A DNA stretch of 64,000 nucleotides from Escherichia phage outra. Below, in pieces: positions 267 through 17,122 of this stretch. The stretch lies in sequence record MN850645.1, one strand, 5' to 3'. The position numbers and the translations under genes are program-made. Each line of letters starts with the position of its first letter. Position 1 is the stretch's first letter. The notes below the pieces were generated by a model. The model was not told the DNA's origin. It saw only the letters and a program-made list of their open reading frames with translations, and searched no databases.

Positions 267-1427
267 TTAGTAAGAACGACCACCAAACACATACTCTGTG
301 TAGTTTTTACGTTCTTTGTTTTTAATAACAACTTCAATGTTGTTACCTTTATCATCGGTGAACATAAAGTGATAACCGTCACCGCCCATTGTACGGATGT
401 GTTTTTCATCATACGTCAGCAAGATACGGTCTACACCCCAGTAGTAGTCACCTTCTTCGTCTTTATCTTCTACGGTAACGACTCCTTCCATTTCAGGAAG
501 ATGCTCTTCTCCTAGCTTATGGTCTACAGCTACAACATAACGATTACCGCTAAACAAACCCTGTGCTGTCATACCGTCAATATCGGTATCTGCCGAAACA
601 TCTCCTGTACGATCTACACCGTTAACTTTCAGAAGTTTAACTTCTTTTGCAGCATAGCGGTGTTCAGTAATACTGATACCCATTAATGCAAGTGCATCAG
701 AGAATTTGTCATTAGGGTAACGGTTAAGTTCTTCTACTAATGACTGAACAATATCAAAGTTCAAGTCCACGGACAGATTATAAAGCGTTTCAAAATCTGG
801 TAAAAAGGCTTTGTTCTCCAGATTTTTAGCCAGATAATCATCCATAGTAGCTTTAGGTAGTTTCTTATAGCTAAAGCTGTAGAAAATACGGCTAGGGCGA
901 TTACGCAAAAATTCTGATACATAACCATCATTTTTAGTCAATACAAACAGCTTGTCATAGCCACCAACACCATCCAGCAGGGTAAGCAAACCATCCTGTG
1001 CATCTTTTTCAGCATACAGTTTATCAAATTCATCGATCATAATCATCACAGGTTGTGTGATTTTAGACATAAAATTGATAAAGCCTTCACCATTAAAAGC
1101 ACTACCGATAGAAATAGTAGGAATACCCATTTCACGAAGAGCAGAAGACAGCATTTTAGCTTGCAAAGTTTTACCGCTACCCTTCGTACCCTCAAGGAGA
1201 ACACCTGTGTTTTTACCTTTGCGGCTAAGGAACGTCTTGATAATACGTTCTGATTTATCATCAGTATCACCGTATGTTACTGAAGGGACTTCCATATCGT
1301 TTTTAGGATACAGGAAGAACTCGCCACTTTGAGTAACACCTACACCAAAAGTTCCTGCTGGAATTTCTTCAATATCTGTACCAGACTTCTGACGCAGGAA
1401 GATTTGATTGCCGAATACTGTAAACAT
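267..1427 (-). CDS. AAA+ family ATPase (paralogue 1)
   Basis: Walker A GTKGSGKT, Walker B IMIDEFDK, sensor/Arg region RPSR; SD AGAGGAG before ATG; paralogous to 15995-17122. Confidence 0.8.
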   Translation of the reverse strand: MFTVFGNQIFLRQKSGTDIEEIPAGTFGVGVTQSGEFFLYPKNDMEVPSVTYGDTDDKSERIIKTFLSRKGKNTGVLLEGTKGSGKTLQAKMLSSALREMGIPTISIGSAFNGEGFINFMSKITQPVMIMIDEFDKLYAEKDAQDGLLTLLDGVGGYDKLFVLTKNDGYVSEFLRNRPSRIFYSFSYKKLPKATMDDYLAKNLENKAFLPDFETLYNLSVDLNFDIVQSLVEELNRYPNDKFSDALALMGISITEHRYAAKEVKLLKVNGVDRTGDVSADTDIDGMTAQGLFSGNRYVVAVDHKLGEEHLPEMEGVVTVEDKDEEGDYYWGVDRILLTYDEKHIRTMGGDGYHFMFTDDKGNNIEVVIKNKERKNYTEYVFGGRSY

Positions 1428-1447
1428 AGTTTTCTCCTCTATTTAAT

Positions 1448-1918
1448 TTAGTCAGATTCCCAAATGTTGTCTTTCTTAACCCACATTCGTTGATTATCTG
1501 AACCTCTATAACGTTTCGTTGTTGGTTGAGTCATATCATACTTACCATCTATTACTATGTCAACCAGTTTTTTAATTTTCTCTGGAATTTCTTCAAAAAG
1601 ATATCCTGTATATAAGACAATATCTTTTTTGTTTCTAAAACAATCTCTTACCTTCTCAAGAACATACTCTACAGTGTCAATGTTCTCTTTGTCAAGAGGT
1701 TCACCACCTAAAACTGTTAATCCTTTAATGAAAGGTCGAGATAAATCTTTCAAGATAAGATCTAATGTTTCAGTAGTGAACTCTTGTCCGTAGTTATACG
1801 ACCAGGCTTTCTGGTTAAAGCAGCCACGGCAACCGTGGCTACAACCGCTCACCCACAAAGAGCATCTTACACCATCACCGTTGAGCATGTCAACAGGTTC
1901 ATATCCGGCGTAATTCAA
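1448..1918 (-). CDS. nrdG: anaerobic ribonucleotide reductase activating protein (radical SAM)
   Basis: CSHGCRGC radical-SAM cysteine motif, GGEP motif, 156 aa, directly downstream of nrdD. Confidence 0.85.
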   Translation of the reverse strand: MNYAGYEPVDMLNGDGVRCSLWVSGCSHGCRGCFNQKAWSYNYGQEFTTETLDLILKDLSRPFIKGLTVLGGEPLDKENIDTVEYVLEKVRDCFRNKKDIVLYTGYLFEEIPEKIKKLVDIVIDGKYDMTQPTTKRYRGSDNQRMWVKKDNIWESD

Positions 1919-3714
1919 AAATGTTTCTCCCTTTCTAATACCTCTTGCATTTTACCTTTATTATAAGGGCGAGAGTTAGGGGCAGACAGGTATCCTGACA
2001 CTCTTCTGATTACAGATATAGATTCTTCCTCATGATTGCCACAACTTGGACACTCGAAGCCTTTAGCTGTTGCCTTAAATTCACCATGAAAACCACATTT
2101 GAAACACTGATCTACAGGTTGGTTCACGCCAAAATAAGGAATTTTGTTGTAGGCATAATCTACAAGGGTTTCCAGTGCTTGCAAGTTATTTTTAAGGTTT
2201 GGTGTTTCTACATAGCCTATGTTCCCACCATTACTGATTTGTGCAAAACCTTCCTCATAATCCCACTTTTGGAACGGGGTAGTGTGCATCCACACAGGTT
2301 GATGGAAAGAGTTTGTCAAGTAGTCACGATCAATAGAACCAGGATAGCGATCATTTAATGCTTTGGCAAATTTATAACACAAGGATTCTGCTGGTGTTCC
2401 ATACAAACTAAAAGCTAAACCAGAACGTTCTTTAAATGTGCCACAGATATCCTTCATATATTGAAGGATGTTTTTACCCATTGCTTTTGGATTGGTGTTA
2501 CCTGGGTATAAAATCTCCATAGCTTCTGCTAAACCTACATAACCGATACTAATAGAGGCATAACCACCTTCGAATAGCTTACCAATCTCTTCATTAGCTT
2601 CTAGTCGAGCTAAAGCCCCTTCCATAAACAATGTAGGGTTTTGAGATGCTTTGGTATGTCTAATACGGTTAACACGTAGCATATGTGCCTTATACGCCAT
2701 CTCCATATGTTGTTCCAACAGTTCAGTAAATAAGATGCCCTTTTCACGGGACTCTGCTGCAATGATAGGTAAGTTTAAAGAAACTACGCCTAAGTTGAAA
2801 CGACCATCATATTTTTCACCTTGCTCTGTTGCATAGTATGACAAGAAGCTACGGCAACCCATGCTTGTGACGCGACCATCTGAAGATCCTGTAACTTCTT
2901 TGTTTAAAGGTACAGAGATAAAATCAGGATAAATGCGTTCAGCACAACACTCCATTGCCAGTTGCTTCAAATCATAATTTGGATCGCCAGCTTTCATGTT
3001 AACACCATCTTCCAAGAAGAAGATAACTTTAGGAAACACAGGAGTTACCCTATCTTTTCCCAATCCTTGTTTGTGCACCATTAGGTAGTTTTTAGTGATC
3101 ATTCTACCAAAAGCAGAGGTATCCAAACCTAAACTAATTGTTATAAAAGGTGACTGACCATTTACACTCATTAGAGTGTTCACCTGGTAGATTAAAGTTT
3201 GCATTGCATCATAGACCTGTTTATCTACCATACGCATAGCAATATCATAATCGCCAACATCGGCATATATTTTATTAAAACTTGCTTTAACGTATTGACT
3301 AAGCCCAGTATCAACATGTGCACAAGTTTGTCCACCATATTGGCTAGAAGCTACTGCTTGAATAATTTGAGTTAGGACAGTAGTCGCTACACCGATAGAT
3401 TTTGGTTTTTCAATATGTGCATTACCAATACGGAAACCGTTCTCAAGCATATCTTGGTAATTTACCAGGCAACAATTAGTTAAAGGTGAGAGTAAATAAT
3501 CTAAATCGTGAATGTGACCATACCCACTTTTATGCCATTCTGCCAGATCTTCCGGTAAAATATGGGTCATTGCCATGTGCTTGCTTAGGATACCTGCTAG
3601 TAAGTCTCGGTGAGTATTAACAATCATTGCAGGTTTGTTTGCATTTTCACGAGTAAATTCTTCGGATGTTTGTTCGAGGAATCCGATTACATCCTCATAT
3701 AGTTTTTGGGTCAT
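1915..3714 (-). CDS. nrdD: anaerobic ribonucleoside-triphosphate reductase (class III)
   Basis: C-terminal Zn ribbon CFKCG...CPSCG and glycyl-radical motif RVSGYLS; start moved to ATG 3714 with GGAGGA SD because track start 3744 lies inside a terminator hairpin. Confidence 0.85.
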   Translation of the reverse strand: MTQKLYEDVIGFLEQTSEEFTRENANKPAMIVNTHRDLLAGILSKHMAMTHILPEDLAEWHKSGYGHIHDLDYLLSPLTNCCLVNYQDMLENGFRIGNAHIEKPKSIGVATTVLTQIIQAVASSQYGGQTCAHVDTGLSQYVKASFNKIYADVGDYDIAMRMVDKQVYDAMQTLIYQVNTLMSVNGQSPFITISLGLDTSAFGRMITKNYLMVHKQGLGKDRVTPVFPKVIFFLEDGVNMKAGDPNYDLKQLAMECCAERIYPDFISVPLNKEVTGSSDGRVTSMGCRSFLSYYATEQGEKYDGRFNLGVVSLNLPIIAAESREKGILFTELLEQHMEMAYKAHMLRVNRIRHTKASQNPTLFMEGALARLEANEEIGKLFEGGYASISIGYVGLAEAMEILYPGNTNPKAMGKNILQYMKDICGTFKERSGLAFSLYGTPAESLCYKFAKALNDRYPGSIDRDYLTNSFHQPVWMHTTPFQKWDYEEGFAQISNGGNIGYVETPNLKNNLQALETLVDYAYNKIPYFGVNQPVDQCFKCGFHGEFKATAKGFECPSCGNHEEESISVIRRVSGYLSAPNSRPYNKGKMQEVLEREKHF

Positions 3715-3720
3715 TAATCC

Positions 3721-3754
3721 TCCGTGGAAAATAAAAGCCAGCATTAAGCTGGCT
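3721..3754 (-). terminator. rho-independent terminator
   Basis: stem AGCCAGC/GCTGGCT (3736-3754) followed on minus strand by TTTATTTTCC. Confidence 0.5.
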
Positions 3755-3803
3755 TTAGGGTGGATCTTTATTTTAAATCTTTTTCGTAAGATTGTCCTTG
3801 ATC

Positions 3804-4754
3804 TTAGTCAAGGTTTTTGGTAATACGTGTACAACCATCAGAAGTCAAACCGTCAACTTGAGTTTCCCAAGTGCCATGAATATTTCGGAACAATGTTGTT
3901 ACACCTTTTGGTTCATTAATAATGATTGCCATAACAAGTTTAGGATCGATAACAGACATAATCTTTTCCTCAATACCCTCTGTAATAACATTATTACGCA
4001 CAATATTAATTACATCTTCTTGTACAGAAAGGGTACTTACGTTCTTAAGAGTATATACCTGCTGCGTAGTGTAAATGATACGAACATAACTTACAGAACG
4101 AGTAGGCACAGGTTTACGCGGTCGGCGAAAACGTGGTTTTGGTGAAGATTCAGTCTTACTTTCATTTTTTGAATAATACTCCTCAAACAGTTTAGTAAAT
4201 GTTTTTACATCAACTACAAACCGATCTTTCCTATATGGAGAATTCTTATGTGCACCATTAATACCACTGTTTTCATCGAAGAAAGTAATGTTTTCTTCAG
4301 TTGAATATGTTAGATAATGGTCTGCATCTTTCCAATGTGGTTGTGGACAATGCGGATTACAAACGGAAAGCAGATAACTAATATCTTCTTCCGTTGCACT
4401 AGTATCCAGGAAACACGTATTGTGCACAGTCAGTTGTACTTTTGCAACCATATCCATTTCTTTATCCTCGTTGGCAAGATATTCAGTACGAATAATTTCC
4501 AGAAAACCTTCAGGTGTTACTTCCATAAATGTGTATTCAGGGTGAAGTTCCATATATTCAAATCCACAACCATCTAATTGCTGTAGGAAGTTAGGATAGA
4601 AGAACAAGTCATTAACACTATGAATCAGATCATTGATTTCTGCTTCAGATGTGTAACCAAAACTTTTGTGAATTGCTTCATTAAGAATATGCAGGATACC
4701 CATCTCTTCTGCTGCTTTTTTAACTTCCAGTTTATTAGCGTAAAATGCAATCAT
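3804..4754 (-). CDS. hypothetical protein (316 aa)
   Basis: long ORF in operon orientation, no recognisable motif. Confidence 0.6.
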   Translation of the reverse strand: MIAFYANKLEVKKAAEEMGILHILNEAIHKSFGYTSEAEINDLIHSVNDLFFYPNFLQQLDGCGFEYMELHPEYTFMEVTPEGFLEIIRTEYLANEDKEMDMVAKVQLTVHNTCFLDTSATEEDISYLLSVCNPHCPQPHWKDADHYLTYSTEENITFFDENSGINGAHKNSPYRKDRFVVDVKTFTKLFEEYYSKNESKTESSPKPRFRRPRKPVPTRSVSYVRIIYTTQQVYTLKNVSTLSVQEDVINIVRNNVITEGIEEKIMSVIDPKLVMAIIINEPKGVTTLFRNIHGTWETQVDGLTSDGCTRITKNLD

Positions 4755-4771
4755 TATGTTCTCCTTCTAAA

Positions 4772-5206
4772 TTAGTTTAAAATTTCTTTGGCAATGGTAG
4801 AAGCAAGTTTTCCATCATATTGATTAGGATACTCTGCTTTAAGGTGTTTCATCATATCTGGCATTTTCTTGCCTGTCAAGGCAAATTCTTCAGCAATCGC
4901 TCGAAGGTCATCTTCAGATAGCATTTCTGGCAAATATTTTTCCAGAGTGGTGATATCACGCATAGCTCGCTCACATTTGCTAATGGAAGCATTAACTTTC
5001 TTAAGTGAGTCTAGCTCCTCTTTAGCGTGTGCAATACCAATCTTAACAATGTTAATCATAATATCATCTTCTGATTTATTTAGATTTGCCTTTTGAGTAC
5101 GCGCAAGGTCAAACTCACCAATAATATTAGTTAACAAAGCAAAAGCACCCTTATCGGTTGTACGTGCTAAGATACGATCTGCTTTCATTTGTGTCACAAT
5201 AGACAT
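4772..5206 (-). CDS. GatB/YqeY-domain protein
   Basis: LEKYLPEMLSEDDLRAIAEE and ADGKLASTIAKEIL resemble YqeY signature blocks; 144 aa as in YqeY. Confidence 0.65.
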   Translation of the reverse strand: MSIVTQMKADRILARTTDKGAFALLTNIIGEFDLARTQKANLNKSEDDIMINIVKIGIAHAKEELDSLKKVNASISKCERAMRDITTLEKYLPEMLSEDDLRAIAEEFALTGKKMPDMMKHLKAEYPNQYDGKLASTIAKEILN

Positions 5207-5218
5207 TCTATTCTCCTC

Positions 5219-5791
5219 TTATTTGCTAATGCTTTGAGTCTTGTTTACAACACGGTTTATTGCCAGTGAAGCCCTAGGCTCTGCAATACCTGTTGCATAG
5301 ATATAAGGATGACCTTTTGGAGACTCCCTCATACCGAATGAACCTAATTCTAAACCATATTCATCCTCTACGTCAACCCCAATATTAGTGGGTACTAAAT
5401 ATGTTTTAACTCCATAATAAGTAGAGAAGAAACAGCGCATAGAGTTAGCATACTCTTCAATTGTAGCATCAGGGTAGAACTCAATCAACTCCAATTTCAA
5501 GAAAATATTAAAATGGGTATCATCTAAATTTTCTTCTGTGCGGTAACATGGTGTTAGTGCCATATACGGATTACCTACTGCAAATTCAAAACCATCCTTC
5601 TCCATTTGCAGGAAAGATTGTTCTGCACTAGCTACATAGTATTTACCGTTAGGATGCCCTAATGGGCGATCCTCTTTATTTTCTGGTAGTGTATACGCCA
5701 GTATATCAGCATCCACGAGATATGGAACTTCCAACATTTGTGCAAATCGACCATAGTAATCAATAGCTTGAGCTATTACTGCAACATTCAT
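5219..5791 (-). CDS. hypothetical protein (190 aa)
   Basis: ORF in operon orientation. Confidence 0.55.
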   Translation of the reverse strand: MNVAVIAQAIDYYGRFAQMLEVPYLVDADILAYTLPENKEDRPLGHPNGKYYVASAEQSFLQMEKDGFEFAVGNPYMALTPCYRTEENLDDTHFNIFLKLELIEFYPDATIEEYANSMRCFFSTYYGVKTYLVPTNIGVDVEDEYGLELGSFGMRESPKGHPYIYATGIAEPRASLAINRVVNKTQSISK

Positions 5792-6039
5792 GATCGACCT
5801 CCATTGCGGAATGCACGTTTAGTAATGTTTGACATAGTGATCAAATCTTGAAGCGTCATACCAGGAAAATGCTGTTCAAGAACACCTTCAACAGCGCCTA
5901 CAATATCTGATAACTCAATAAGTTGCATCAGCTTGCAATCTTGATCAATAGCATCTTGAAGTTCATAAAGCTCTTCTTGAATCTTAGCAACAGAACCATA
6001 TTCCTCTTTGCTAATCTCCTTCAAATGATACCCTGCCAC
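5788..6039 (-). CDS. small all-alpha protein, possibly MazG-like NTP pyrophosphohydrolase
   Basis: EELYELQDAI...LIELSDIVGAVEGVLE pattern loosely resembles MazG/HisE EExxE...ELxDv motif; 4-nt overlap with downstream gene. Confidence 0.35.
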   Translation of the reverse strand: MAGYHLKEISKEEYGSVAKIQEELYELQDAIDQDCKLMQLIELSDIVGAVEGVLEQHFPGMTLQDLITMSNITKRAFRNGGRS

Positions 6040-6051
6040 TTTAACCCCCCC

Positions 6052-7788
6052 TTAGTTTACCAGTTTATTTATATCTGGTAAAAGATTTATTTCACCTAAG
6101 AAATCACCTTCACCTTCCTCTAGCCAACTCTCATATGCTTGTGCATGATTATAGTTACCATCAAAAGAATCTGCAACAAATTTTTCTACAGTTTTTCGAG
6201 ATGTGCCAGCGCCAAATACACCAAGTTTAATACCATTGATCGGTAAAGTGGTACTTGTGGGTACTTTCTCTGTTGCAACACGGTTGATATCTATAATCTC
6301 CTGTACGGTTGTGTTCCATTGTAAGCATTTAACACAACGGGTATGCGCTACATACAGTAGGTTTCGCTCTGCCTCTTCCAGTCCTACCCATTCACCAGTC
6401 TTTTTATCATAGTTGGAAGGAAAATCATTAGCAACAATAACCTGATCCCACTCCAAACCTTTAGACTTGTGTGCTGTAGTCAGTGTGACTTTTGCTGTAG
6501 GAGAATTTCTATGCGTTCTAAGTGTATGTGCTATAGTGTTTGCCTTACCAGAAACTACGATGTTTAACAAGCGTTTAGCATCTGGATCAGCCTCTGCACA
6601 CTCAACAAATTCATCCCAGTCTGCGTAAGGTAATACAGTTTCATGTTTTACTTTCTCAATATCTCCTCTCCGAAGAGCATTAACACTATCTACCATAGAG
6701 ATAAAATCCCTGGTATCTACGTTAATAATAATTTCTTCCCCATCTGCAATACGATCCATTGCCTCCATAAGCAAGGTTAAATTCTTGCGAAAGATGATAG
6801 TGTAAGGTTTTGTATAGTCTACAACATCTGATTTGTAGCTACCTACTACAGTATCAAAACCTTTACCAACCAAAGGATGACGCAAAGGTTCTTTATCGCT
6901 TAAAATCATATTGGCAATGTTTGCCACTTTGGGGCCAAAACGGAAGCAAGCAGTTAATGGAAGCTCTGCCCCATATGTAGAGGTTTCCTTCATCATATTT
7001 TGGCTTCCACGGAACTGGTAGATGCTCTGATATTCGTCACCCACCACTACTACTTGTTTTGCAGATTTAGCATTTCGCAGAATAGACAAGAATGCAGGGT
7101 TAACATCCTGGAATTCATCACCAAAAATAATATCATAACCAAGATCAGCACCAGATAATTCAAACAATTTTACATAGGTGTCATGCGTCATCAAAGTATC
7201 TGTGTTAGGATCGATGCGCTCTCGCCACAATTGTTTTGCATACTTAACTACTTCTGTAATTAGTTTGTGTTCGTTAATACCTTTTCTTTTAATATCTGCA
7301 AGATGTACACTAGGAAAATGTTTACGGCTGATAAAAGGATCATCCGAAAATTCAAACTTACCTACGGTTTGCTTGATCATTAAACCGATCATAGCACGAG
7401 TTAAAAGTGTTTTCCCTCGTTTATCAATAAGATTATTAATCTTAAATTTCTTTGCTATCTCACTACCTGTACCTGCAACGTTAACATACTGTCCTTCTGG
7501 TCGTGACAGTTTTGCACGTAAACGATGATCCAGGAATTGATAGCAAATAGAATGCAATGTACGGCATTCTACATTTAGTGGCATCTTACGTCGTGCTTCT
7601 TCTGCCATGCTTTTATTGAAAGCTAAGTAAAGAATGCGATCTTCTGTACTGTTAGCCAGCAAATAAAGTGTTGACGTTTTGCCTGATCCAGATTTAGCTT
7701 GGATAGTTAAAAAGCGATGGTCTGGAAAAGCCTCCTTAATAGCTGTCTGCTCTTCTGTTGGAGTGAAGCTCAACTCTTTCTTAGCCAT
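6052..7788 (-). CDS. UvrD/Rep-like superfamily-1 DNA helicase
   Basis: Walker A AKSGSGKTST, motif II FGDEFQDVN, C-terminal VAHTR; start set to ATG 7788 with GAGAGG SD (track start 7827 is TTG). Confidence 0.8.
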   Translation of the reverse strand: MAKKELSFTPTEEQTAIKEAFPDHRFLTIQAKSGSGKTSTLYLLANSTEDRILYLAFNKSMAEEARRKMPLNVECRTLHSICYQFLDHRLRAKLSRPEGQYVNVAGTGSEIAKKFKINNLIDKRGKTLLTRAMIGLMIKQTVGKFEFSDDPFISRKHFPSVHLADIKRKGINEHKLITEVVKYAKQLWRERIDPNTDTLMTHDTYVKLFELSGADLGYDIIFGDEFQDVNPAFLSILRNAKSAKQVVVVGDEYQSIYQFRGSQNMMKETSTYGAELPLTACFRFGPKVANIANMILSDKEPLRHPLVGKGFDTVVGSYKSDVVDYTKPYTIIFRKNLTLLMEAMDRIADGEEIIINVDTRDFISMVDSVNALRRGDIEKVKHETVLPYADWDEFVECAEADPDAKRLLNIVVSGKANTIAHTLRTHRNSPTAKVTLTTAHKSKGLEWDQVIVANDFPSNYDKKTGEWVGLEEAERNLLYVAHTRCVKCLQWNTTVQEIIDINRVATEKVPTSTTLPINGIKLGVFGAGTSRKTVEKFVADSFDGNYNHAQAYESWLEEGEGDFLGEINLLPDINKLVN

Positions 7789-7789
7789 T

Positions 7790-8266
7790 TCAACCTCTCT
7801 TAATTTGTTTAACAAGCATAGGAACAAAATCTCGTTTTAAAATTTGTTCAATAATGTGATCAGGTAGCTGTTGGAAATTATAATTAAATGCTACTGTCTC
7901 ACCTTTAGGTGTTTCTACCCGCACATATAACATGTTACGAAGTTTATCCACTTGTGCTGTATATTCTAAACCATGTAATTGATGCATTGCAAACATCAAA
8001 TCATCAGTTTCAGTTTGGAATCTATCATTTGCTTGCATCAAGGACAAGGTAAAAGGTAGATTTTCCCTAAGAGCCACCTTCTTAGGAACTAGTGAAGGAA
8101 AATACTCACCAATAACTTCCTGTGTAAGCTGGATACACTCTTTTTCAAGTTGGTTTTGTTCCTTGAGTTCACAAACACTTTTTTGTAAAGTGTTAACCTC
8201 TTTTTGCAAAGCTGCTAGTTGAGCACTTAACTTTCTTTTTTGATTACGACCAAAACGTTTAGACAT
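7790..8266 (-). CDS. hypothetical protein, predicted coiled-coil N-terminus
   Basis: ORF in operon orientation. Confidence 0.5.
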   Translation of the reverse strand: MSKRFGRNQKRKLSAQLAALQKEVNTLQKSVCELKEQNQLEKECIQLTQEVIGEYFPSLVPKKVALRENLPFTLSLMQANDRFQTETDDLMFAMHQLHGLEYTAQVDKLRNMLYVRVETPKGETVAFNYNFQQLPDHIIEQILKRDFVPMLVKQIKRG

Positions 8267-11244: not shown

Positions 11245-11511
11245 CTAATTACTGTTAGATCTGTACTCTGTCTTCCATTCACAATGGTAAACTTCAACAG
11301 GTTCTAACTTCCAGTGTTCAGGAACTAGTTCAGGACAATATCTACAAAAGAGAAATAGATAGATAACTAAGACAGGTATTAAATAGTAAAATGGTATACG
11401 ATCATAACCATACTTACGAGATAACATGTAGACATATAGATAGGGTATAACAATTAATCCTATAACTATAAGTAAGAAGAGAAGTATAAACCTTAGTGTA
11501 GTAACATCCAT
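11245..11511 (-). CDS. hypothetical membrane protein (88 aa)
   Basis: strongly hydrophobic N-terminal half. Confidence 0.5.
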   Translation of the reverse strand: MDVTTLRFILLFLLIVIGLIVIPYLYVYMLSRKYGYDRIPFYYLIPVLVIYLFLFCRYCPELVPEHWKLEPVEVYHCEWKTEYRSNSN

Positions 11512-11589
11512 AGTATTCTCCTATACAGTAATATACTCTGTTCCTGCCCCTCCATGAGTGACAGGAACAATATCTATAGAGAATACTAA

Positions 11590-11650
11590 CTCGCTTCGCT
11601 CGTCACCTTTCAGGTTTAGGGTAGCATGTTTTTCTGAAAAAGTCAATACT
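11590..11650. repeat. conserved intergenic element copy A (CTCGCTTCGCTCG ... TTAGGGTAGCATGTTTTT)
   Basis: near-identical 18-bp core and upstream CTCGCTnnCGCTCG block also present at 40282-40340. Confidence 0.6.
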
Positions 11651-11675
11651 CTCCACAAAACTTTACAAAATACTT

Positions 11676-11948
11676 TTACATAGGTACAACAGAGTCTGTT
11701 TTGAAGTCGTACATATGATTTACACCTGTGATTTTTGACATAGAGATTGCACGTTTAGCACCTGCAATTACCTGGTCTGTCTTCTTAATCTCTTCACGGA
11801 ACTTACGTACAGTTAAAGAGAAGAAACGATGATCCATCCATTGACGATTCACACGATCACGCTTGAAGTGACGGAAATCTTCAATCTGCTTATTGCGCAA
11901 TCGGCGCAGTACATGCAATAGTTGATAGTAAGGGTGTTTATTTTTCAT
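11676..11948 (-). CDS. hypothetical basic protein (90 aa)
   Basis: ORF in operon orientation. Confidence 0.5.
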   Translation of the reverse strand: MKNKHPYYQLLHVLRRLRNKQIEDFRHFKRDRVNRQWMDHRFFSLTVRKFREEIKKTDQVIAGAKRAISMSKITGVNHMYDFKTDSVVPM

Positions 11949-11951
11949 AAA

Positions 11952-12380
11952 TTATTCTCCAAATCGAAAATCGTCAATATCATCAAACCATACACAATGG
12001 CGAGTCCTTTCTTTTTCTGTTGCAGACATTGTTTCAACAGCTTTAGGACTAAGCACAACAGGAGTGTAACGAATAGGTCGTTCATAATAGTAGCCATACT
12101 TTTCTGTATTAGCTGCCTCAAAGACTTTACGGCGTTCTTCAAGATCTTCTATGGTGAATCCTACCATATAGCCATCATATTTGCTACCCCATCCTTCCTC
12201 GCTTTCAACAATCGGGATATAAAAGCCGTTACGCGTCCCTAACGCTGGTTTTTCTTGAGCCTGAAGGCAAGCCTCCCATCCTGCTTTAAAGACGTTATAG
12301 AGCGATTTACGCACGTTATGAGTGCCGCTTTCGCTTGCTGGATAGAGTTCATTAAATTTATCTTGGATTTGTTGTGTCAT
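11952..12380 (-). CDS. hypothetical protein (142 aa)
   Basis: ORF in operon orientation. Confidence 0.5.
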   Translation of the reverse strand: MTQQIQDKFNELYPASESGTHNVRKSLYNVFKAGWEACLQAQEKPALGTRNGFYIPIVESEEGWGSKYDGYMVGFTIEDLEERRKVFEAANTEKYGYYYERPIRYTPVVLSPKAVETMSATEKERTRHCVWFDDIDDFRFGE

Positions 12381-12523
12381 ACTCGCCCCTTAGTGATTAT
12401 TTGACCAGCTAAACAAATAGCTTGTAGTACAATAAAGAAGTAGCCTAATTTTACACTACCCAATACCCAGAATGCAATGTTTGCAAACAAACAAAAAGCA
12501 ATATTAAGTCTAAAGAATAACAT
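12377..12523 (-). CDS. hypothetical small membrane protein (48 aa)
   Basis: hand-translated; ATG abuts upstream stop (TAAATG), stop overlaps next ATG. Confidence 0.35.
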   Translation of the reverse strand: MLFFRLNIAFCLFANIAFWVLGSVKLGYFFIVLQAICLAGQIITKGRV

Positions 12524-12724
12524 TTAATCCCCTTCATATTTAGGTAAAGGCATATATGCCACAATAGGAGGGTAATCAAAGTGAAAATGATGGTTCACCA
12601 CAATAATCTTACCAGACATACTTTTATGCACTTCACAATACCCTTTTTCACCATCTTCCATTACCACCACATACTCACCTAGTGGGATATCGTATGGATC
12701 TTCTACTTTTACCCATTCTGTCAT
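12524..12724 (-). CDS. hypothetical protein (66 aa)
   Basis: ORF in operon orientation. Confidence 0.45.
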   Translation of the reverse strand: MTEWVKVEDPYDIPLGEYVVVMEDGEKGYCEVHKSMSGKIIVVNHHFHFDYPPIVAYMPLPKYEGD

Positions 12725-12990
12725 TTTGGAAATACCTCTTGTCCATCTTCATGCATTTGTAGTAAAGTTTCACAGATTTCATACACATCTTGGTATGTTA
12801 CAACTGAGAGATCAGATTCTTGATCTTCGACAAGCATAGCACAAAGAGCTTTAATGTCAATACCTTTACAATGTTCCGTAGCTACACGGTACATTTCACC
12901 ATCCTCCCAAACAATTGGTTGCGGGAGCAAAACATCTGTACCATCTTCACAAGTTACAATGTAGTCTGCAATATTATCACGAATTTTCAT
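12721..12990 (-). CDS. hypothetical protein (89 aa)
   Basis: 4-nt overlaps with both neighbours. Confidence 0.5.
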   Translation of the reverse strand: MKIRDNIADYIVTCEDGTDVLLPQPIVWEDGEMYRVATEHCKGIDIKALCAMLVEDQESDLSVVTYQDVYEICETLLQMHEDGQEVFPK

Positions 12991-13244
12991 TGTACTACCC
13001 CCTTAAATCCAGATGTACTGCCAGTTTTAACTTTTGCTTTAAGAGGTTCCAACTCTACCATAGGTGTTGCTACTTGTATAGGATTTTCCTCAACCTCATA
13101 AATATAATATTCATAATAAGCATACTTACCAATAGAGTGCAGATACTTAATTGCATGTTCAGGTGAATCTGCTTCAACATACCCCAAATCTTTTGTAGTG
13201 CGGCCTTCACAGTCGCCTTCTGTAGTTACGTGATAAAGTGTCAT
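12987..13244 (-). CDS. hypothetical protein (85 aa)
   Basis: 4-nt overlaps with both neighbours. Confidence 0.5.
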   Translation of the reverse strand: MTLYHVTTEGDCEGRTTKDLGYVEADSPEHAIKYLHSIGKYAYYEYYIYEVEENPIQVATPMVELEPLKAKVKTGSTSGFKGVVQ

Positions 13245-13564
13245 AAAACCTCCTTCTTGTTGGCTGCTTCAATCATAGCGTTAAGAGTCTCCATACCACT
13301 GTCAACTGCTTGAGCAATCTCTTGGAACACCGTTTTCTTAAAGATGTATAAAGATCCTGCCTGTAAGCGTTGCACACAGCATAAGATGGTTTGGTGATCC
13401 ATAACAAAATCACCATAAGCACAATCAATTTTCCCTGTGATTGGGTTGTCTCGTGAGCGAGGATCGTATTCTAATGTGATATGCGTTACACCAGGTAAAG
13501 TAACAAACTGACAACGGATATTGACACGTGGTGCAATTGACACGCTAAACAGACTGTTTGACAT
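13241..13564 (-). CDS. hypothetical protein (107 aa)
   Basis: GAGGAGG SD before ATG. Confidence 0.5.
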   Translation of the reverse strand: MSNSLFSVSIAPRVNIRCQFVTLPGVTHITLEYDPRSRDNPITGKIDCAYGDFVMDHQTILCCVQRLQAGSLYIFKKTVFQEIAQAVDSGMETLNAMIEAANKKEVL

Positions 13565-13566
13565 TT

Positions 13567-13711
13567 AAACCTCCTCATAGTAAGGTAAAGCCTTGATCAG
13601 TTGTTCTGAAGTGCCATTTTGCACCCACGTAACACCATTGTCAACAGAAACATACCCTTTTTTGTCAATAAATTTACGCAGACAGCCAGTGAACTTATTT
13701 TTGTAGATCAT
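13567..13711 (-). CDS. hypothetical small protein (48 aa)
   Basis: hand-translated; AAGGA SD before ATG. Confidence 0.35.
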
Positions 13712-13875
13712 TTCTTCTTTCCTTTTTGATTACACCCCCCATCACTCCCTTGCCAAACTTCCGATCTGAATTCCATCTCAAACCACTCACCACCGCAAAA
13801 ACGGTTATGTTCAACACGTCTATCTTCCTTCATTGCTTCTTTAGCTTCGATAGAAGTTAGTTCGATGTTTTGCAT
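13708..13875 (-). CDS. hypothetical small protein (55 aa)
   Basis: start moved to ATG 13875 preceded by AAAGGAGAAA SD; first gene of minus block. Confidence 0.45.
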   Translation of the reverse strand: MQNIELTSIEAKEAMKEDRRVEHNRFCGGEWFEMEFRSEVWQGSDGGCNQKGKKK

Positions 13876-13993
13876 TTGTTTTTCTCCTTTCATTTGGTAT
13901 GCGCTAATCTTAACAAAATAAAAATGTATGTCAATACTTGATTTGAAATTAGTTTCTGGTACTCTGTGGGTATCGTAACAAAAGAGGTTAGAT

Positions 13994-14284
13994 ATGAACA
14001 TCACACTAGCAACTAAGAATATTACAGAAACTTTTGATGGTTTTGGCATTATTATTGCTGTTCATGGGCATAACGAAAAATGGTTAGCCTCTTTTGAAGA
14101 GGACAAAGAACGCAATGTACGTTTGAATGCACCAATCAAAGTTTTACACCAGGTAGGTGAGAATAAGAAACAATGGAGATCATACAAAGAGTGGAACATT
14201 ACGAACGAGTTAATACACAAACTTGACAAAGTGATAAACATGTTCGACAATGCACCAAGCAGTGCAAAACGTGTTTTACTATAA
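13994..14284 (+). CDS. hypothetical protein (96 aa)
   Basis: first gene of plus block after divergent intergenic region. Confidence 0.5.
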   Translation: MNITLATKNITETFDGFGIIIAVHGHNEKWLASFEEDKERNVRLNAPIKVLHQVGENKKQWRSYKEWNITNELIHKLDKVINMFDNAPSSAKRVLL

Positions 14285-14295
14285 AGGAGAGTGAT

Positions 14296-14649
14296 ATGAA
14301 AATTGTACACGATGAAATTCAATTTGAAGAGAGTGATCTTCTTGATCTGGATGTGACACTAAGTAAACTGATCTACAACGCACTTTCTGCATATCGTGCA
14401 AAAGTGATAGCCACAAACAATGTTAAAATTCCTAGCGGGTTACTTCGTCGGATGTACCCACACGCTAAAGGTGACTATCTACCTTATATGGAAGAACGAG
14501 CAGCAGAACACTGGTTAGAAATTCTTGAAAAAATGGAGTCCTCTTTTAAGGATTCAACTCCACCTGAAGAAGTTAATGAAAAACAACGGCAAGAGCGTTT
14601 AGAAGGTCGTATTTTGTTTGCTAAGTATTTCCATAATTTGTGGAGCTAA
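14296..14649 (+). CDS. hypothetical protein (117 aa)
   Basis: AAGGAG SD before ATG. Confidence 0.5.
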   Translation: MKIVHDEIQFEESDLLDLDVTLSKLIYNALSAYRAKVIATNNVKIPSGLLRRMYPHAKGDYLPYMEERAAEHWLEILEKMESSFKDSTPPEEVNEKQRQERLEGRILFAKYFHNLWS

Positions 14650-14747
14650 ACATATCTGGTAAAATCACTTATATGTTCTTAGTATACTTGTGTAAAGAAG
14701 TTATCTAACAGGTGTTGAGTGGACTATTAAATTAGGAGGGCTTTAAT

Positions 14748-15086
14748 ATGTTTAGTAAAGAAATGAGAGAAGTAATTGCCACTTTGGTAGTTGATCATGG
14801 TGTTGAAGTTGAGCGTCACGTTTGGAACGATGAACCTCCTTTCTTCGATTTGGCATCACGAGCTAAAAGTCATATGCACCTGCTGGAAGACGGTAATGAG
14901 TTTGTTCTCCGTATGCGTTATGATCGAGAGTTTCGAATTCCGCTTGACACTGAACCAGATGGTGTAGTAATGTGGTTGGCAGAACATTTCGCATACGATG
15001 CACTACATGGAAGAAGTTTTGGTAATGAGCGTTGGGATGCCATTTGTCGTAAGCATAATATTGAACCAGAGTACGGAGTTTTATAA
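14748..15086 (+). CDS. hypothetical protein (112 aa)
   Basis: AGGAGG SD before ATG. Confidence 0.5.
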   Translation: MFSKEMREVIATLVVDHGVEVERHVWNDEPPFFDLASRAKSHMHLLEDGNEFVLRMRYDREFRIPLDTEPDGVVMWLAEHFAYDALHGRSFGNERWDAICRKHNIEPEYGVL

Positions 15087-15337
15087 TGTTAAGTATCAAA
15101 CCTAAAATGATAACAGCAGATGAAGCAGACTTTATTTTCAAATGTGGACGTGTATGGAGAGAATTCACAAAAGGGAATGAAGTGGTTGTTGTTGTCGAAC
15201 ACAAGATATCTATCCAGGATCTGTTTGGACAATATGTTGATGTTATTAAATTAGGTATTGACAAGGGTTTAGTTGAGGTGTTAACATTAGATCAAGTTGA
15301 AGCAGAGCACCTCGATAAAGTGGTGGTTGAATTTTAA
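15086..15337 (+). CDS. hypothetical protein (83 aa)
   Basis: start overlaps upstream stop. Confidence 0.5.
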   Translation: MLSIKPKMITADEADFIFKCGRVWREFTKGNEVVVVVEHKISIQDLFGQYVDVIKLGIDKGLVEVLTLDQVEAEHLDKVVVEF

Positions 15338-15357
15338 AATACAGACGGGAGAAAGGT

Positions 15358-15531
15358 ATGAGTTTCTTTGTTACAGTATTTATGGCTATCTGGATTGTAG
15401 TCTCACTCGTTCTTTTCCTGGTGGGTTGTCTGGAAGAGATTAAGAAAGCGGTTATTTGCGGTTTCTTTGGCTTTATTATCTCTCCTGCCTGGATGTGGTT
15501 CTTCATTATGATTGGTTTCCTTAAAAGGTAA
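15358..15531 (+). CDS. hypothetical small membrane protein (57 aa)
   Basis: hand-translated; GGGAGAAAGG SD; hydrophobic. Confidence 0.4.
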   Translation: MSFFVTVFMAIWIVVSLVLFLVGCLEEIKKAVICGFFGFIISPAWMWFFIMIGFLKR

Positions 15532-15545
15532 GTGAGGAATAAAGA

Positions 15546-15983
15546 ATGAGTAAAACAAACGCAATCGCAGATAAAGCAACGGATGTACTTCTGAACATGG
15601 TTAACGTCACTATTCAAACAATGAGTGATGTTGTAGAGTTTGGAAAACAACAAATTCCAGAAGTAATCCATCAACTATTAGTGTGGAAAGCAGTATCCGC
15701 AGGTTTATGGCAACTTTTTAGTATTTGCTTTATGTTTATTACTTTTATTGCTGTGCGGAACCTCGTAAAAGCAATTAAAGATAAAGAATGCCTGTGGTCA
15801 CGAGATCGCTATGGTGAAGTATCTGCTTTACCTATTGTTGGCCTTGTTGTCTGTGCTTTCTTTTTCTTTTTAGGATTTGTTATTTTCTTTTCGAATTTTG
15901 ATTGGCTAAAAATCATTATTGCACCAAAAGTGTATCTGATTGAATTTGCTGCTGATTTAATTCGTTCATCTCAACAAAAATAA
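15546..15983 (+). CDS. hypothetical membrane protein (145 aa)
   Basis: two long hydrophobic segments. Confidence 0.5.
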   Translation: MSKTNAIADKATDVLLNMVNVTIQTMSDVVEFGKQQIPEVIHQLLVWKAVSAGLWQLFSICFMFITFIAVRNLVKAIKDKECLWSRDRYGEVSALPIVGLVVCAFFFFLGFVIFFSNFDWLKIIIAPKVYLIEFAADLIRSSQQK

Positions 15984-15994
15984 AAGGGGTTAAA

Positions 15995-17122
15995 ATGAAA
16001 TACACGATTTATGGTGATATTGTAAGTGTAAATAAAGATATGGGCGTGGAATCTAACTATCTTCCACCTGGATTCTATACTGTTAGTCGTGATCCCCTTG
16101 GCAATTATTTTTTAAGCCGTGGTAATCTGACAGGTGTACCTGATGTTCTGTATGGTGAAACAGAAAAACGAGCAAATCACGTTATCCGTACATTCCATCG
16201 CCGGAGTGCACAAGGTAAAAATACAGGATTGCTTCTGACAGGAACTAAGGGTAGTGGTAAAACTATGTTAGCCAAACTCATTAGTCGTGACCTTGTAGAA
16301 GAAGGTATTCCAACTATTATGGTTACTCAAGCCTACAGCGATGCTAATTTCATTGAACTTATTAGCAAGATCACCGACAAAGCAGTGATTATTTTTGACG
16401 AGTTTGATAAAGTGTATGAGAAGAAACAAGATCAAGAAGCACTTCTCACTTTGTTAGATGGTACTGGCAGTGGTAATAAACTGTTTATTCTAACTAAAAA
16501 CAGTGGCTTTATCTCTGAATTCTTTCTAAATCGTCCTAGTCGTGTGTTTTATAATTTTAATTATGATAAAATCTCACTAGAAACTATGATTGACTATTTA
16601 GATAAAAACCTGGATAACAAAGCACACTTTGATAATTTCCAAAGGCTTTGGGATGTAAGTTTAGAGTTGTCCTTTGATGTGATCCAAGGTATAGTAGAAG
16701 AACTTAATTTCTACCCTGATTTATCCTTTAAAGAATGCATCTCTATGATGGGCGTTTCTTTGGGTGGTGGTAATAAGTGGGATATCAGCAGCGTTGTTAT
16801 TAATGGGAAACTTCAGAAAGTTAGCTGGGTATCTAGTTGGCATAACTTCACACCTGCAATCTTTTTAGGTGGCTCGTGCACACTAGACGTGTACTTGTCA
16901 TCTCCAAGTGATGCAGACTCTAAAGAAGCCCTTGCTAATAGCTCTTACGTGGTTTTTGATGATGAAGGAGATGCTCGAATTCCATTGAATGCGACAAAAA
17001 TGAAAGCAGATCTTATTACAGGCGGTAAAATCGTTGTGTTTAGTGATGATCCAGAAGATTCTTTCCGTATTGTTCTGGAACCAACTATCACCAATGGTGC
17101 AACTTTGGCAAGCGTGTTTTAA
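15995..17122 (+). CDS. AAA+ family ATPase (paralogue 2)
   Basis: Walker A GTKGSGKT, Walker B IIFDEFDK, NRPSR; collinear similarity to 267-1427 product. Confidence 0.8.
   Translation: MKYTIYGDIVSVNKDMGVESNYLPPGFYTVSRDPLGNYFLSRGNLTGVPDVLYGETEKRANHVIRTFHRRSAQGKNTGLLLTGTKGSGKTMLAKLISRDLVEEGIPTIMVTQAYSDANFIELISKITDKAVIIFDEFDKVYEKKQDQEALLTLLDGTGSGNKLFILTKNSGFISEFFLNRPSRVFYNFNYDKISLETMIDYLDKNLDNKAHFDNFQRLWDVSLELSFDVIQGIVEELNFYPDLSFKECISMMGVSLGGGNKWDISSVVINGKLQKVSWVSSWHNFTPAIFLGGSCTLDVYLSSPSDADSKEALANSSYVVFDDEGDARIPLNATKMKADLITGGKIVVFSDDPEDSFRIVLEPTITNGATLASVF

What the first reader, a model, noticed from the sequence alone, without database searches (positions are those of the whole stretch)
267..17122. 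Two diverged AAA+ ATPase paralogues encoded on opposite strands 14.5 kb apart
The 386-aa product of 267-1427 (minus) and the 375-aa product of 15995-17122 (plus) align along their whole length (GTKGSGKT, DEFDK, LTLLDG, NRPSR, ELNxYP). The fold is clear but the substrate is not; they are not obviously clamp loaders or HslU. A duplicated unfoldase or remodeller could pair with the HslV-like hydrolase at 53965, or act on host complexes.
Basis: partly seen in the sequence, partly recalled or inferred. Interest (0 to 1): 0.6.

Follow-up and report, generated by a model that had tools for sequence, protein, structure and literature searches.

The report
Two phage classical-AAA ATPase paralogues
A phi92-like E. 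coli phage carries two old, diverged copies of an uncharacterised but very widespread phage-only ATPase of the Cdc48/FtsH/Bcs1 type; they are probably protein-remodelling motors, and nothing links them to the phage's HslV-like peptidase.

Summary
ORFs 267-1427(-) (386 aa) and 15995-17122(+) (375 aa) are intact paralogues. They share 47% identity over about 254 aa (E 1e-81), and every quoted motif is present. The "whole length" claim is only partly right: the C-terminal ~120 aa share 11% identity and can be linked only through an intermediate clade.

The window is a Justusliebigvirus (phi92-like), 99.5% identical to phage ESCO8. Both genes are already annotated there as "ATPase", "FtsH-like protease" or "hypothetical".

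They belong to PHROG 2376, a large phage-restricted family with one uniform architecture, a fast-evolving C-domain and a conserved hydrophobic C-terminal tip. No member has been characterised.

Pairing with the HslV-like peptidase is not supported. The two distributions barely overlap outside this subfamily, there is no synteny, and a Vibrio phage with the HslV-like gene has no AAA of this family.

Verdict: a new member of a known kind, of modest interest.

The parts
267..1427 (-). ORF A: 386-aa classical-clade AAA ATPase (orthologue of phi92 gp190; PHROG 2376)
   Evidence: Intact ORF. PHROG 2376 E 4.8e-104 over the full length. Pfam AAA 1.2e-6. AF2 model pLDDT 87.7. The top 14 Foldseek PDB hits are all Bcs1, followed by FtsHi, NSF, Rpt and FtsH. 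At least 99% identical in 47 phage records.
1284..1427 (-). ORF A N-terminal small beta domain (aa 1-48)
   Evidence: Five predicted strands, pLDDT > 90. 25% identical to the equivalent domain in B.
1167..1190 (-). ORF A Walker A, GTKGSGKT
   Evidence: Translation verified. G80, G83, G85 and K86 are invariant in 76 family members.
1089..1097 (-). ORF A pore-loop-1 equivalent, F111-N-G113
   Evidence: The column is aromatic in 101 of 119 members and is followed by G (81) or D (31). It aligns with the MWFGE pore loop of p97-D2.
1029..1034 (-). ORF A Walker B, D132-E133
   Evidence: Invariant and verified by translation.
888..902 (-). ORF A NRPSR: second region of homology with two arginines (R177, R180)
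   Evidence: Both Arg residues are invariant. The motif aligns with the RPGR arginine fingers of p97-D2.
294..671 (-). ORF A C-terminal beta-rich domain (aa 253-378), fast-evolving
   Evidence: 39-50% identity among A orthologues, against 83-90% in the core. hhalign against clade C gives 95.6% probability.
270..305 (-). ORF A C-terminal tail, NYTEYVF+GGRSY
   Evidence: The family-wide aromatic/hydrophobic tail is followed here by a clade-A-specific extension of 4-6 aa.
239..260 (-). Terminator-like hairpin just after the ORF A stop codon
   Evidence: 9-bp stem with 5 GC pairs and a T-rich tail. This is a consensus match only; the total count in the region is not above chance.
1535..1563 (-). 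Sigma-70-like promoter match (11 of 12) about 100 nt upstream of ORF A, inside nrdG
   Evidence: TTGACA-17-TATGAT. This is a consensus match only; promoter-like sites in the region are not enriched over shuffles.
15995..17122 (+). ORF B: 375-aa classical-clade AAA ATPase (PHROG 2376)
15995..16144 (+). ORF B N-terminal small beta domain (aa 1-50)
   Evidence: Five predicted strands.
16241..16264 (+). ORF B Walker A, GTKGSGKT
16334..16342 (+). ORF B pore-loop-1 equivalent, Y114-S-D116
   Evidence: The aromatic is kept. Gly is replaced by Asp, as in 31 of 119 members.
16397..16402 (+). ORF B Walker B, D135-E136
16529..16543 (+). ORF B NRPSR with R180 and R183
   Evidence: Invariant in 119 of 119 members. 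Aligned to the RPGR motif of p97-D2.
16760..17095 (+). ORF B C-terminal beta-rich domain (aa 256-367), fast-evolving
   Evidence: 33-68% identity among B orthologues, against 69-84% in the core. hhalign against clade C gives 93.3% probability.
17096..17119 (+). ORF B C-terminal tail, GATLASVF
   Evidence: Low pLDDT, so probably flexible. The tip is hydrophobic/aromatic, as in 214 of 250 family members.
17138..17159 (+). Terminator-like hairpin 16 nt after the ORF B stop codon
   Evidence: 9-bp stem with 5 GC pairs. Consensus match only.

Best explanation
Both genes encode catalytically competent members of a phage-specific subfamily (PHROG 2376) of the classical AAA clade, the clade of Cdc48/p97, NSF, FtsH, Bcs1, Pch2/TRIP13 and the proteasomal ATPases. 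The most likely mechanism is inferred from the clade. Each protein assembles into a ring and uses ATP hydrolysis at inter-subunit sites, with Walker A/B in cis and the two RPGR-type arginines in trans, to pull on or remodel a protein client through the central pore using the conserved pore-loop-1 aromatic. The small N-terminal beta domain and the fast-evolving C-terminal beta domain, with its flexible hydrophobic tip, would select the client or docking partner. The two copies come from an old duplication inside the Stephanstirmvirinae-like lineage. They have kept the motor and diverged almost completely in the N- and C-domains, so they most likely serve different clients or partners (sub- or neo-functionalisation). 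They are not a redundant pair and not obligate subunits of one complex. The genes sit in early and replication/nucleotide-metabolism regions and have no conserved operon partner. This points to a role in host takeover or in turnover of replication or recombination complexes, not in virion assembly. Shown here: paralogy, clade, motif integrity, architecture, distribution, and absence of linkage to the HslV-like gene. Inferred: ring formation, threading, the identity of clients, and the timing of expression. The confidence of 0.6 is for the whole statement: about 0.85 for the clade and paralogy part and about 0.5 for the protein-remodelling mechanism and sub-functionalisation.
For: Paralogy: E 1e-81.

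Clade assignment:
- The family profile against PDB sequences hits only classical AAA proteins: p97-D2 2.7e-13, VAT, AFG2, NVL, Rix7 and Bcs1. The alignment runs from Walker A to RPGR.
- Foldseek with model A gives Bcs1 for the top 14 hits, then FtsHi, NSF, Rpt, FtsH and Mpa.

Motifs:
- Walker A, Walker B DE, sensor-1 T167/N169, R180 and R183 are invariant.
- No conserved Arg sits at the sensor-2 position.
- The secondary structure shows no pre-sensor-1 hairpin or helix-2 insert.
- The pore-loop-1 aromatic is present in 101 of 119 members.

Family:
- The same four-part architecture appears in both models.
- 3,344 50%-identity clusters match at E <= 1e-30, nearly all 350-400 aa and matched over the full length.
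- Only 39 loci were found in 185,579 species genomes, almost all in MAGs.
- Full-length structural relatives occur only in phages.

Domain evolution:
- The C-domain evolves faster than the core.
- The C-terminal tip is hydrophobic in 86% of members, against a 35% background.

Duplication:
- Phapecoctavirus has one copy. Justusliebigvirus and Klebsiella phage phi1_175008 have two, and both copies are about 75% identical between these lineages.
- In the NJ tree A+C is sister to B+D, inside a clade that excludes the jumbo-phage homologues.

Context: early or small-gene regions in Bcp1 and 7-11, and the replication module in Staphylococcus phage CF1.
Against: - No member of the family has been characterised, so ring formation, ATPase activity and protein threading all rest on analogy.
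- The pore-loop-2 region is deleted by about 12 residues and pore loop 1 is shortened relative to p97-D2. ORF B has Asp where the canonical pore-loop Gly sits. A non-threading mode is therefore possible.
- Weak sub-threshold sequence hits to Hda, DnaC-like and IstB models exist.
- Support for the duplication node is weak (48-67% bootstrap, NJ only). Independent acquisition of copy A cannot be excluded.
- Promoter and terminator calls are consensus matches that are not enriched over shuffles.
Confidence: 0.6

Rival explanations
1. One or both ATPases are the dedicated unfoldase cap of the phage's HslV-like Ntn peptidase (53965-54618). Together they would form a phage-encoded HslUV- or proteasome-like protease, and the conserved hydrophobic C-terminal tail would act like the HslU C-terminus or an HbYX motif.
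For: Proteasomal ATPases (PAN, Mpa, Rpt, Cdc48) belong to the classical AAA clade and dock through C-terminal hydrophobic or aromatic tails (established knowledge). This family has a conserved hydrophobic C-terminal tip. The HslV-like protein starts MTTI and matches HslV models. All Stephanstirmvirinae carry both genes.
Against: The AAA family is present in 379 phage records, most from lineages with no detectable HslV-like gene (Herelleviridae, lactococcal 949-like phages, Sextaecvirus, Erwinia jumbo phages). Vibrio phage 1.187.O has the HslV-like gene but no family member at E <= 10. The genes are 37-53 kb apart, and no AAA gene sits near the HslV-like gene, whose conserved neighbour is a PhoH-like ATPase. 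Fuchs et al. found no co-occurring AAA+ for phage proteasome homologues. To my knowledge the E. coli host encodes HslU, which could serve the phage peptidase. The distribution argument uses single-sequence tblastn at E <= 1e-3, so very remote proteasome homologues could have been missed.
Confidence: 0.06
2. They are DNA-replication accessory ATPases, such as helicase loaders, clamp loaders or initiator-like factors, that act on DNA or on the replisome and not as protein unfoldases.
Against: Profile search against PDB returns only classical-clade proteins among its best 60 hits and no clamp loader or initiator among them. The RPGR double-arginine SRH is a classical-clade signature and is absent from clamp loaders (SRC motif) and from DnaA/DnaC. 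No sensor-2 Arg is present. No initiator-specific helix insert is seen after beta2. In most phages the gene is not in a replication module and has no conserved neighbour. A classical AAA that remodels replication or recombination proteins would still fall under the main explanation.
Confidence: 0.15
3. A and B are obligate partners that form a hetero-oligomeric ring, like Pex1/Pex6, Rpt1-6 or FtsHi/Ycf2, and are not independent motors.
For: Both keep all catalytic residues. The core is 52% identical. Both are strictly conserved in about 50 Justusliebigvirus genomes. To my knowledge paralogous classical AAA proteins often form hetero-hexamers.
Against: Phapecoctavirus, and most other phage lineages with the family, carry a single copy, so a homomeric assembly must be functional. 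The two genes are on opposite strands, and each is followed by its own terminator-like hairpin. Their N- and C-domains have diverged almost completely.
Confidence: 0.12

Closest known systems
Classical AAA clade ATPases, type II D2-like modules (p97/Cdc48 D2, VAT, AFG2/Drg1, NVL/Rix7)
   Same: These are the best sequence-profile matches (E 2.7e-13 to 1e-8). The alignment runs from Walker A through Walker B, the LLTxxDG helix and sensor 1 to the RPGR arginine fingers. Like them, the family has no sensor-2 Arg.
   Different: The phage proteins have a single AAA module of about 190 aa. Pore loop 2 is deleted and pore loop 1 is shortened. The N-terminal (about 45 aa, beta) and C-terminal (about 110 aa, beta) domains are unrelated, with no Pfam match. 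The family is phage-restricted.
Bcs1 (mitochondrial AAA translocase of the folded Rieske protein)
   Different: The phage proteins have no transmembrane anchor and no BCS1_N domain. The sequence profile ranks Bcs1 well below p97-D2 (E 1e-7). Bcs1 has no C-terminal beta domain. The oligomeric state is unknown here.
HslU (partner of HslV)
   Same: It is an AAA+ unfoldase with a C-terminal hydrophobic tail used for docking (established knowledge).
Clamp-loader and DnaC/DnaA-type AAA+ proteins
   Different: The phage proteins have no SRC motif, no sensor-2 Arg and no initiator-specific insert. They have a classical RPGR SRH instead.
PHROG 2376 'ATPase' (uncharacterised phage family, for example phi92 gp190, Bcp1_221, Salmonella 7-11 gp125, Staphylococcus CF1_0077)
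   Same: Both ORFs are full-length members (E 1e-104 and 1e-108).
   Different: Nothing differs in kind. The only special feature here is that one genome carries two diverged members.

Membership tests
Classical AAA clade | Walker A GxxGxGK[ST] and Walker B hhhhDE | tested here: met
   GTKGSGKT and I(I/M)(F/I)DEFDK are present in both ORFs and invariant in 119 members.
Classical AAA clade | Second region of homology: sensor-1 polar residue followed by two arginines (RPGR-type fingers) | tested here: met
   T167/N169 and R180/R183 (NRPSR; family consensus NRPGR) are invariant and align to the RPGR of p97.
Classical AAA clade | No sensor-2 arginine in the lid | tested here: met
   The only conserved Arg in the lid is R239 (90 of 119, absent in ORF B). 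It lies at the far end of the helix, not at the sensor-2 position, which reads F-D-[MV]-[LI]-Q.
Classical AAA clade | No pre-sensor-1 beta-hairpin, helix-2 insert or pre-sensor-2 insert | tested here: met
   The AF2 secondary structure shows only short loops at these positions.
Classical AAA clade | Pore loop 1 with an aromatic-hydrophobic-Gly motif between beta2 and alpha2 | tested here: inconclusive
   An aromatic is present in 101 of 119 members and Gly two residues later in 81 of 119 (ORF A has FNG, ORF B has YSD). The loop is about 3 residues shorter than in p97, and pore loop 2 is deleted.
Classical AAA clade | Closest solved structures and sequences are classical-clade members | tested here: met
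Classical AAA clade | Ring (usually hexamer) assembly and ATP-driven protein remodelling | not testable with these tools
   No multimer prediction or biochemistry was available.
HslU / HCLR clade | Pre-sensor-1 hairpin, I-domain insertion and sensor-2 Arg | tested here: not met
Clamp loader (gamma/tau, RFC, T4 gp44) | SRC arginine-finger motif, sensor-2 Arg (GDxR) and a C-terminal collar domain | tested here: not met
   There is no SRC motif, and the position equivalent to GDMR reads FDM(L/I). The C-domain is beta-rich, not a helical collar. No clamp loader appears among the best 60 profile-PDB hits.
DnaA/DnaC/IstB initiator clade | Initiator-specific helical insert after alpha2 and family models above cut-off | tested here: not met
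   NCBIfam Hda scores 29.8 bits against a 194.8 cut-off and IstB 19.9 against 200. No extra helix is seen in the models.
Bcs1 family | N-terminal TM anchor plus a BCS1_N domain (PF08740) | tested here: not met
   There is no BCS1_N hit in Pfam. The N-terminus is a soluble beta domain.
FtsH ('FtsH-like protease' / 'ATPase or Zn metalloprotease' in GenBank records) | C-terminal M41 zinc-protease domain (HEXXH) and TM helices | tested here: not met
   There is no Peptidase_M41 hit, and the C-domain is an unrelated beta domain. The GenBank names reflect only AAA-module similarity.
PHROG 2376 phage ATPase family | Full-length match to the family profile | tested here: met
   E 4.8e-104 (profile 2-359 of 363) and 6.6e-108 (1-357 of 363).

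The most novel reading that the evidence does not exclude
Probability: 0.1. Interest if true: 0.7.

Novelty: new member of a known kind. Interest (0 to 1): 0.3.

Why it matters
The pair itself is already in GenBank, in more than 50 phi92-like genomes, under vague or wrong names such as "FtsH-like protease" or "ATPase or Zn metalloprotease".

The useful result is the clean-up. These are single-module classical AAA motors of a very large, phage-restricted and wholly uncharacterised family. The family has more than 3,000 50%-identity clusters and spans Herelleviridae, Stephanstirmvirinae, jumbo phages, crAss-like phages and others. Its architecture is uniform, its specificity domain evolves fast, and its C-terminal docking-like tip is conserved.

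Classical AAA proteins remodel proteins. A motor this widespread in virulent phages therefore implies a common, still unknown step of infection that needs protein unfolding or disassembly.

The naturally duplicated and diverged pair, in genetically tractable E. coli phages (phi92, BASEL Bas61-63), would be a convenient entry point for finding the clients.

The work also removes an attractive but unsupported idea, a phage-encoded HslUV-like protease.

Tried and rejected
1. **Conserved operon partner.** I took 80 IMG/VR loci with 6-kb flanks and clustered all ORFs by all-against-all BLASTP. No neighbour family is shared by more than 5 of 17 locus clusters; the only one at 5 is a metallophosphatase-like protein. 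The top "families" were antisense ORFs inside the AAA gene.

2. **Adjacent small membrane protein as an anchor.** The 145-aa ORF upstream of B (15546-15983) has 2-3 TM segments. Jackhmmer linked it to membrane proteins downstream of the AAA gene in L087 and L089. Only 14 of 75 loci have a TM neighbour, no more than expected from the 17.6% background. Rejected.

3. **VWA/MoxR-like pairing.** One faint VWA_CoxE hit lies 2.4 kb downstream in L008 and is not seen elsewhere. Dropped.

4. **Defence or anti-defence family membership.** PADLOC and NCBIfam give only sub-threshold P-loop hits.

5. **STAND NTPase reading.** Pfam nSTAND3 scores just above cut-off for ORF B (29.3 against 27.2 bits). It was rejected because the SRH arginines, the profile-PDB hits and the fold matches are all classical AAA.

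6. **Copy A as a recent transfer from jumbo phages.** It is 47% identical to the CBB-like homologues, the same as to B. The A+C+jumbo grouping appeared in 0 of 60 bootstraps.

7. **Literature.** Searches on phAPEC8 and Justusliebigvirus ATPases, phage AAA+ anti-defence, and Bcs1-like phage ATPases found no functional study of this family.

8. **Fusions as Rosetta stones.** The longer family members carry only an intein or unannotated extensions.

9. **C-domain fold.** It could not be searched separately.
Full report
**What is there.**
The window is a Justusliebigvirus (Stephanstirmvirinae), a phi92/phAPEC8-like E. coli myovirus of about 148 kb. Its first 20 kb are 99.5% identical to phage vB_EcoM_ESCO8 and 97-98% identical to about 50 other isolates. 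ORF A (267-1427, minus strand, 386 aa) and ORF B (15995-17122, plus strand, 375 aa) are intact. GenBank records annotate them as "ATPase", "putative ATPase or Zn metalloprotease", "FtsH-like protease" or "hypothetical protein". ORF A is the orthologue of phi92 gp190.

BLASTP of A against B gives 47% identity over about 254 residues, E 1e-81. The alignment stops at about residue 255. By domain, identity is 25% in the N-domain, 52% in the ATPase core plus lid, and 11% in the C-domain. The C-domains are still homologous. Each matches the C-domain of an intermediate metagenomic clade C by hhalign (95.6% and 93.3% probability), although the direct A-B comparison is weak. The PHROG 2376 profile covers both proteins end to end, and the two AlphaFold models share the same layout. 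A family HMM finds exactly these two genes in the 64-kb window.

**Anatomy.**
Both AlphaFold2 models are confident, with mean pLDDT 88.3 for B and 87.7 for A. Each shows five parts:
- a five-stranded N-terminal beta domain (about aa 1-45);
- a long helix;
- the AAA alpha/beta domain and the helical lid (about aa 75-250);
- a beta-rich C-terminal domain (about aa 260-365);
- a short, low-confidence tail.

Across 119 family members the following are invariant: Walker A (GxKGSGKT), Walker B (DE), a Gln-x3-LTLLDG helix, sensor-1 T/N, two arginines in NRP(G/S)R, and an F-D pair and an Asn in the lid. No arginine is conserved at the sensor-2 position. The position equivalent to pore loop 1 is aromatic in 101 of 119 members and is followed two residues later by Gly (81) or Asp (31). 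A has F-N-G and B has Y-S-D. Relative to p97-D2, pore loop 1 is about 3 residues shorter and the pore-loop-2 segment is deleted.

**Clade.**
Three independent comparisons agree.
- A profile of 73 members searched against all PDB sequences returns only classical-clade AAA proteins among its best 60 hits: p97/Cdc48 D2 at 2.7e-13, then VAT, AFG2, NVL, Rix7 and Bcs1. The alignment runs from Walker A to the RPGR arginine fingers.
- Foldseek with model A gives Bcs1 for the top 14 hits, followed by FtsHi, NSF, Rpt subunits, FtsH and Mpa.

Together with the RPGR-type SRH, the missing sensor-2 Arg and the absence of clade-specific insertions, this places both proteins in the classical AAA clade. They are not clamp loaders, DnaC/DnaA-type loaders, HslU or STAND NTPases. 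The weak hits to those families are generic P-loop similarity far below curated cut-offs. The GenBank name "FtsH-like protease" is misleading because there is no M41 protease domain.

**The family.**
Both proteins belong to PHROG 2376. A profile search of 1.84 billion cluster representatives finds 8,860 relatives (E <= 1e-3), of which 3,344 score E <= 1e-30. Nearly all are 350-400 aa and match over their full length.

In isolated phages the family occurs in 379 records:
- Stephanstirmvirinae;
- Herelleviridae of Bacillus, Enterococcus and Lactobacillus;
- Staphylococcus Sextaecvirus;
- lactococcal 949-like phages;
- Salmonella 7-11;
- Aeromonas, Proteus and Acinetobacter phages;
- Erwinia, Pectobacterium, Xanthomonas and Agrobacterium jumbo phages;
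- crAss-like phages.

Only 39 loci were found in one genome for each of 185,579 bacterial and archaeal species, almost all on MAG contigs. The family is therefore essentially phage-restricted. No member with a known function turned up in the structure libraries or in the literature searches. One member carries a LAGLIDADG intein in the ATPase domain.

Two family-wide features were not noted before.
- The C-domain evolves much faster than the motor. Among orthologues it is 33-68% identical, against 69-90% for the core.
- The extreme C-terminus is hydrophobic in 214 of 250 members and aromatic in 132 of 250, against backgrounds of 35% and 11%. The penultimate residue is Ala in 101 of 250, giving a consensus ...A-F-COOH.

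Clade A appends 4-6 residues after this motif (NYTEYVF-GGRSY). Clade B has variants such as LASVF, LSLLY and FSKLF.

**Duplication.**
Phapecoctavirus (phAPEC8, ESCO13 and others) has one copy, of the B type at 64% identity. Justusliebigvirus and Klebsiella phage phi1_175008 have both copies, and A and B are each about 75% identical between these two lineages. Both copies therefore predate their split.

In neighbour-joining trees of the ATPase core, clade A groups with metagenomic clade C (62-70% bootstrap) and clade B groups with clade D (99-100%). A+B+C+D form a clade with 38-48% support (67% with P0030). Its next neighbour is the jumbo-phage clade (90%). A never groups with the jumbo-phage sequences (0 of 60 bootstraps). 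The topology favours an old duplication within this lineage followed by loss in Phapecoctavirus, but support is modest and the method is simple.

**Context.**
ORF B lies 1.7 kb downstream of a divergent intergenic region, after several small genes. A terminator-like hairpin follows it, and then a CapR/T5orf172 homing-endonuclease-like gene. ORF A ends the long leftward unit that contains UvrD, tRNA-synthetase-like genes and nrdD/nrdG. It also has a terminator-like hairpin after it, and an 11-of-12 sigma-70-like match sits about 100 nt upstream. These are consensus matches only and are not enriched over shuffles.

In other phages the gene sits among small early-type genes (Bcp1, 7-11) or inside the replication/recombination module (Staphylococcus CF1). 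Clustering of all ORFs within 6 kb in 80 IMG/VR loci found no conserved neighbour. An apparent link to small membrane proteins did not exceed background.

**The HslV-like hypothesis.**
The ORF at 53965-54618 is a real HslV/proteasome-beta homologue. It starts MTTI and matches Pfam Proteasome at 1.6e-5 and NCBIfam HslV at 2e-8, the latter below cut-off. Its homologues occur in 171 phage records: Stephanstirmvirinae and Vibrio, Aeromonas, Shewanella and Caulobacter phages. Outside Stephanstirmvirinae this set barely overlaps the AAA family's distribution. None of the roughly 170 Gram-positive phage records with the AAA has an HslV-like hit.

I fetched the complete genome of Vibrio phage 1.187.O. 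It has the HslV-like gene in the same arrangement as the window: PhoH-like gene, small ORF, HslV-like gene. The family HMM finds nothing in it at E <= 10. Fuchs, Alva and Lupas (PMC8665760) likewise reported no co-occurring AAA+ for phage proteasome homologues. The pairing idea is not supported as a general function. A lineage-specific interaction cannot be excluded without a multimer prediction or an experiment.

**Most likely mechanism.**
By membership of the classical clade and integrity of all catalytic residues, each protein most likely forms an ATP-driven ring that remodels or unfolds a protein client. Whether the ring is a hexamer or Bcs1-like heptamer is unknown. The N-domain and the fast-evolving C-domain plus tail would provide specificity or docking. 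The two paralogues most likely serve different clients. This is inference. The shortened pore loops leave room for a non-threading mode.

The rivals are:
- a replication-loader role (about 0.15);
- an obligate A/B hetero-ring (about 0.12);
- a dedicated HslV-like cap (about 0.06).

**Verdict.**
These are two diverged members of a known superfamily clade, already annotated in dozens of genomes, of unknown function. Novelty: new member of a known kind. The broader family is a worthwhile experimental target, but nothing here is categorically new.

Noticed in passing
window 53965-55898 (-); L090 13902-15780: The HslV-like Ntn hydrolase (217 aa, starts MTTI, with an acidic C-terminal extension of about 70 aa) overlaps a 164-aa ORF (54615-55109, PHROG 14834, function unknown) and is followed by a PhoH-like ATPase (55146-55898). 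The same order, PhoH-like gene, small ORF, Ntn hydrolase, is found in the distant Vibrio phage 1.187.O, whose hydrolase is 37% identical. The conserved ATPase neighbour of the peptidase is therefore PhoH-like, not AAA+.
   Followed up: partly
window 17197-18369 (+): A 390-aa ORF directly downstream of ORF B has three CapR-homology repeats, DUF723/DUF4379 zinc-finger-like hits and a weak T5orf172 (GIY-YIG-like) domain, so it looks like a homing endonuclease. The gene at this position differs in length between relatives (978 nt in EmilieFrey, 1173 nt in PHB05, where it is annotated 'endonuclease'), which suggests a mobile insertion.
   Followed up: partly
window 6052-7827 (-): The UvrD/Rep helicase is 591 aa here and 578 aa in EmilieFrey, but 924 aa in PHB05, and it is annotated 'intein-containing UvrD' in phage ZYD. 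The window therefore carries the intein-free allele of a gene that is invaded by an intein in close relatives.
   Followed up: no
P0223 (727-aa family member from the representatives search): A member of the AAA family carries a LAGLIDADG/Hom_end intein inserted in the ATPase domain.
   Followed up: partly
window 15546-15983 (+): The 145-aa ORF immediately upstream of ORF B (PHROG 3054, function unknown) has 2-3 predicted transmembrane segments. It shares a conserved 'QQIPEVIHQLL.WK' segment with orthologues. After jackhmmer iteration it also matches membrane proteins next to the AAA gene in two distant metagenomic loci (L087, L089). The association is not general (14 of 75 loci).
   Followed up: yes
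window 51829-52491 (-): A 220-aa ORF has an N-terminus that looks like a serine recombinase/resolvase (Y-x-R-x-S near residue 10). This is unexpected in a virulent myovirus and may be a homing or inversion element. It was judged by eye only.
   Followed up: no
window 3804-4754 (-): A 316-aa ORF between nrdD and the tRNA-synthetase-like genes matches PHROG 15930 'ribonucleotide reductase' (E 1e-178) but has no Pfam hit at E <= 0.01. The PHROG name may not reflect a real RNR function.
   Followed up: no
ORF B residue 239 (window 16709-16711) vs ORF A residue 236: A lid arginine conserved in 90 of 119 family members (ELNRYP in A) is Phe in ORF B (ELNFYP). This is one of the few differences between the paralogues at a conserved core position. 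Its significance is unknown.
   Followed up: no
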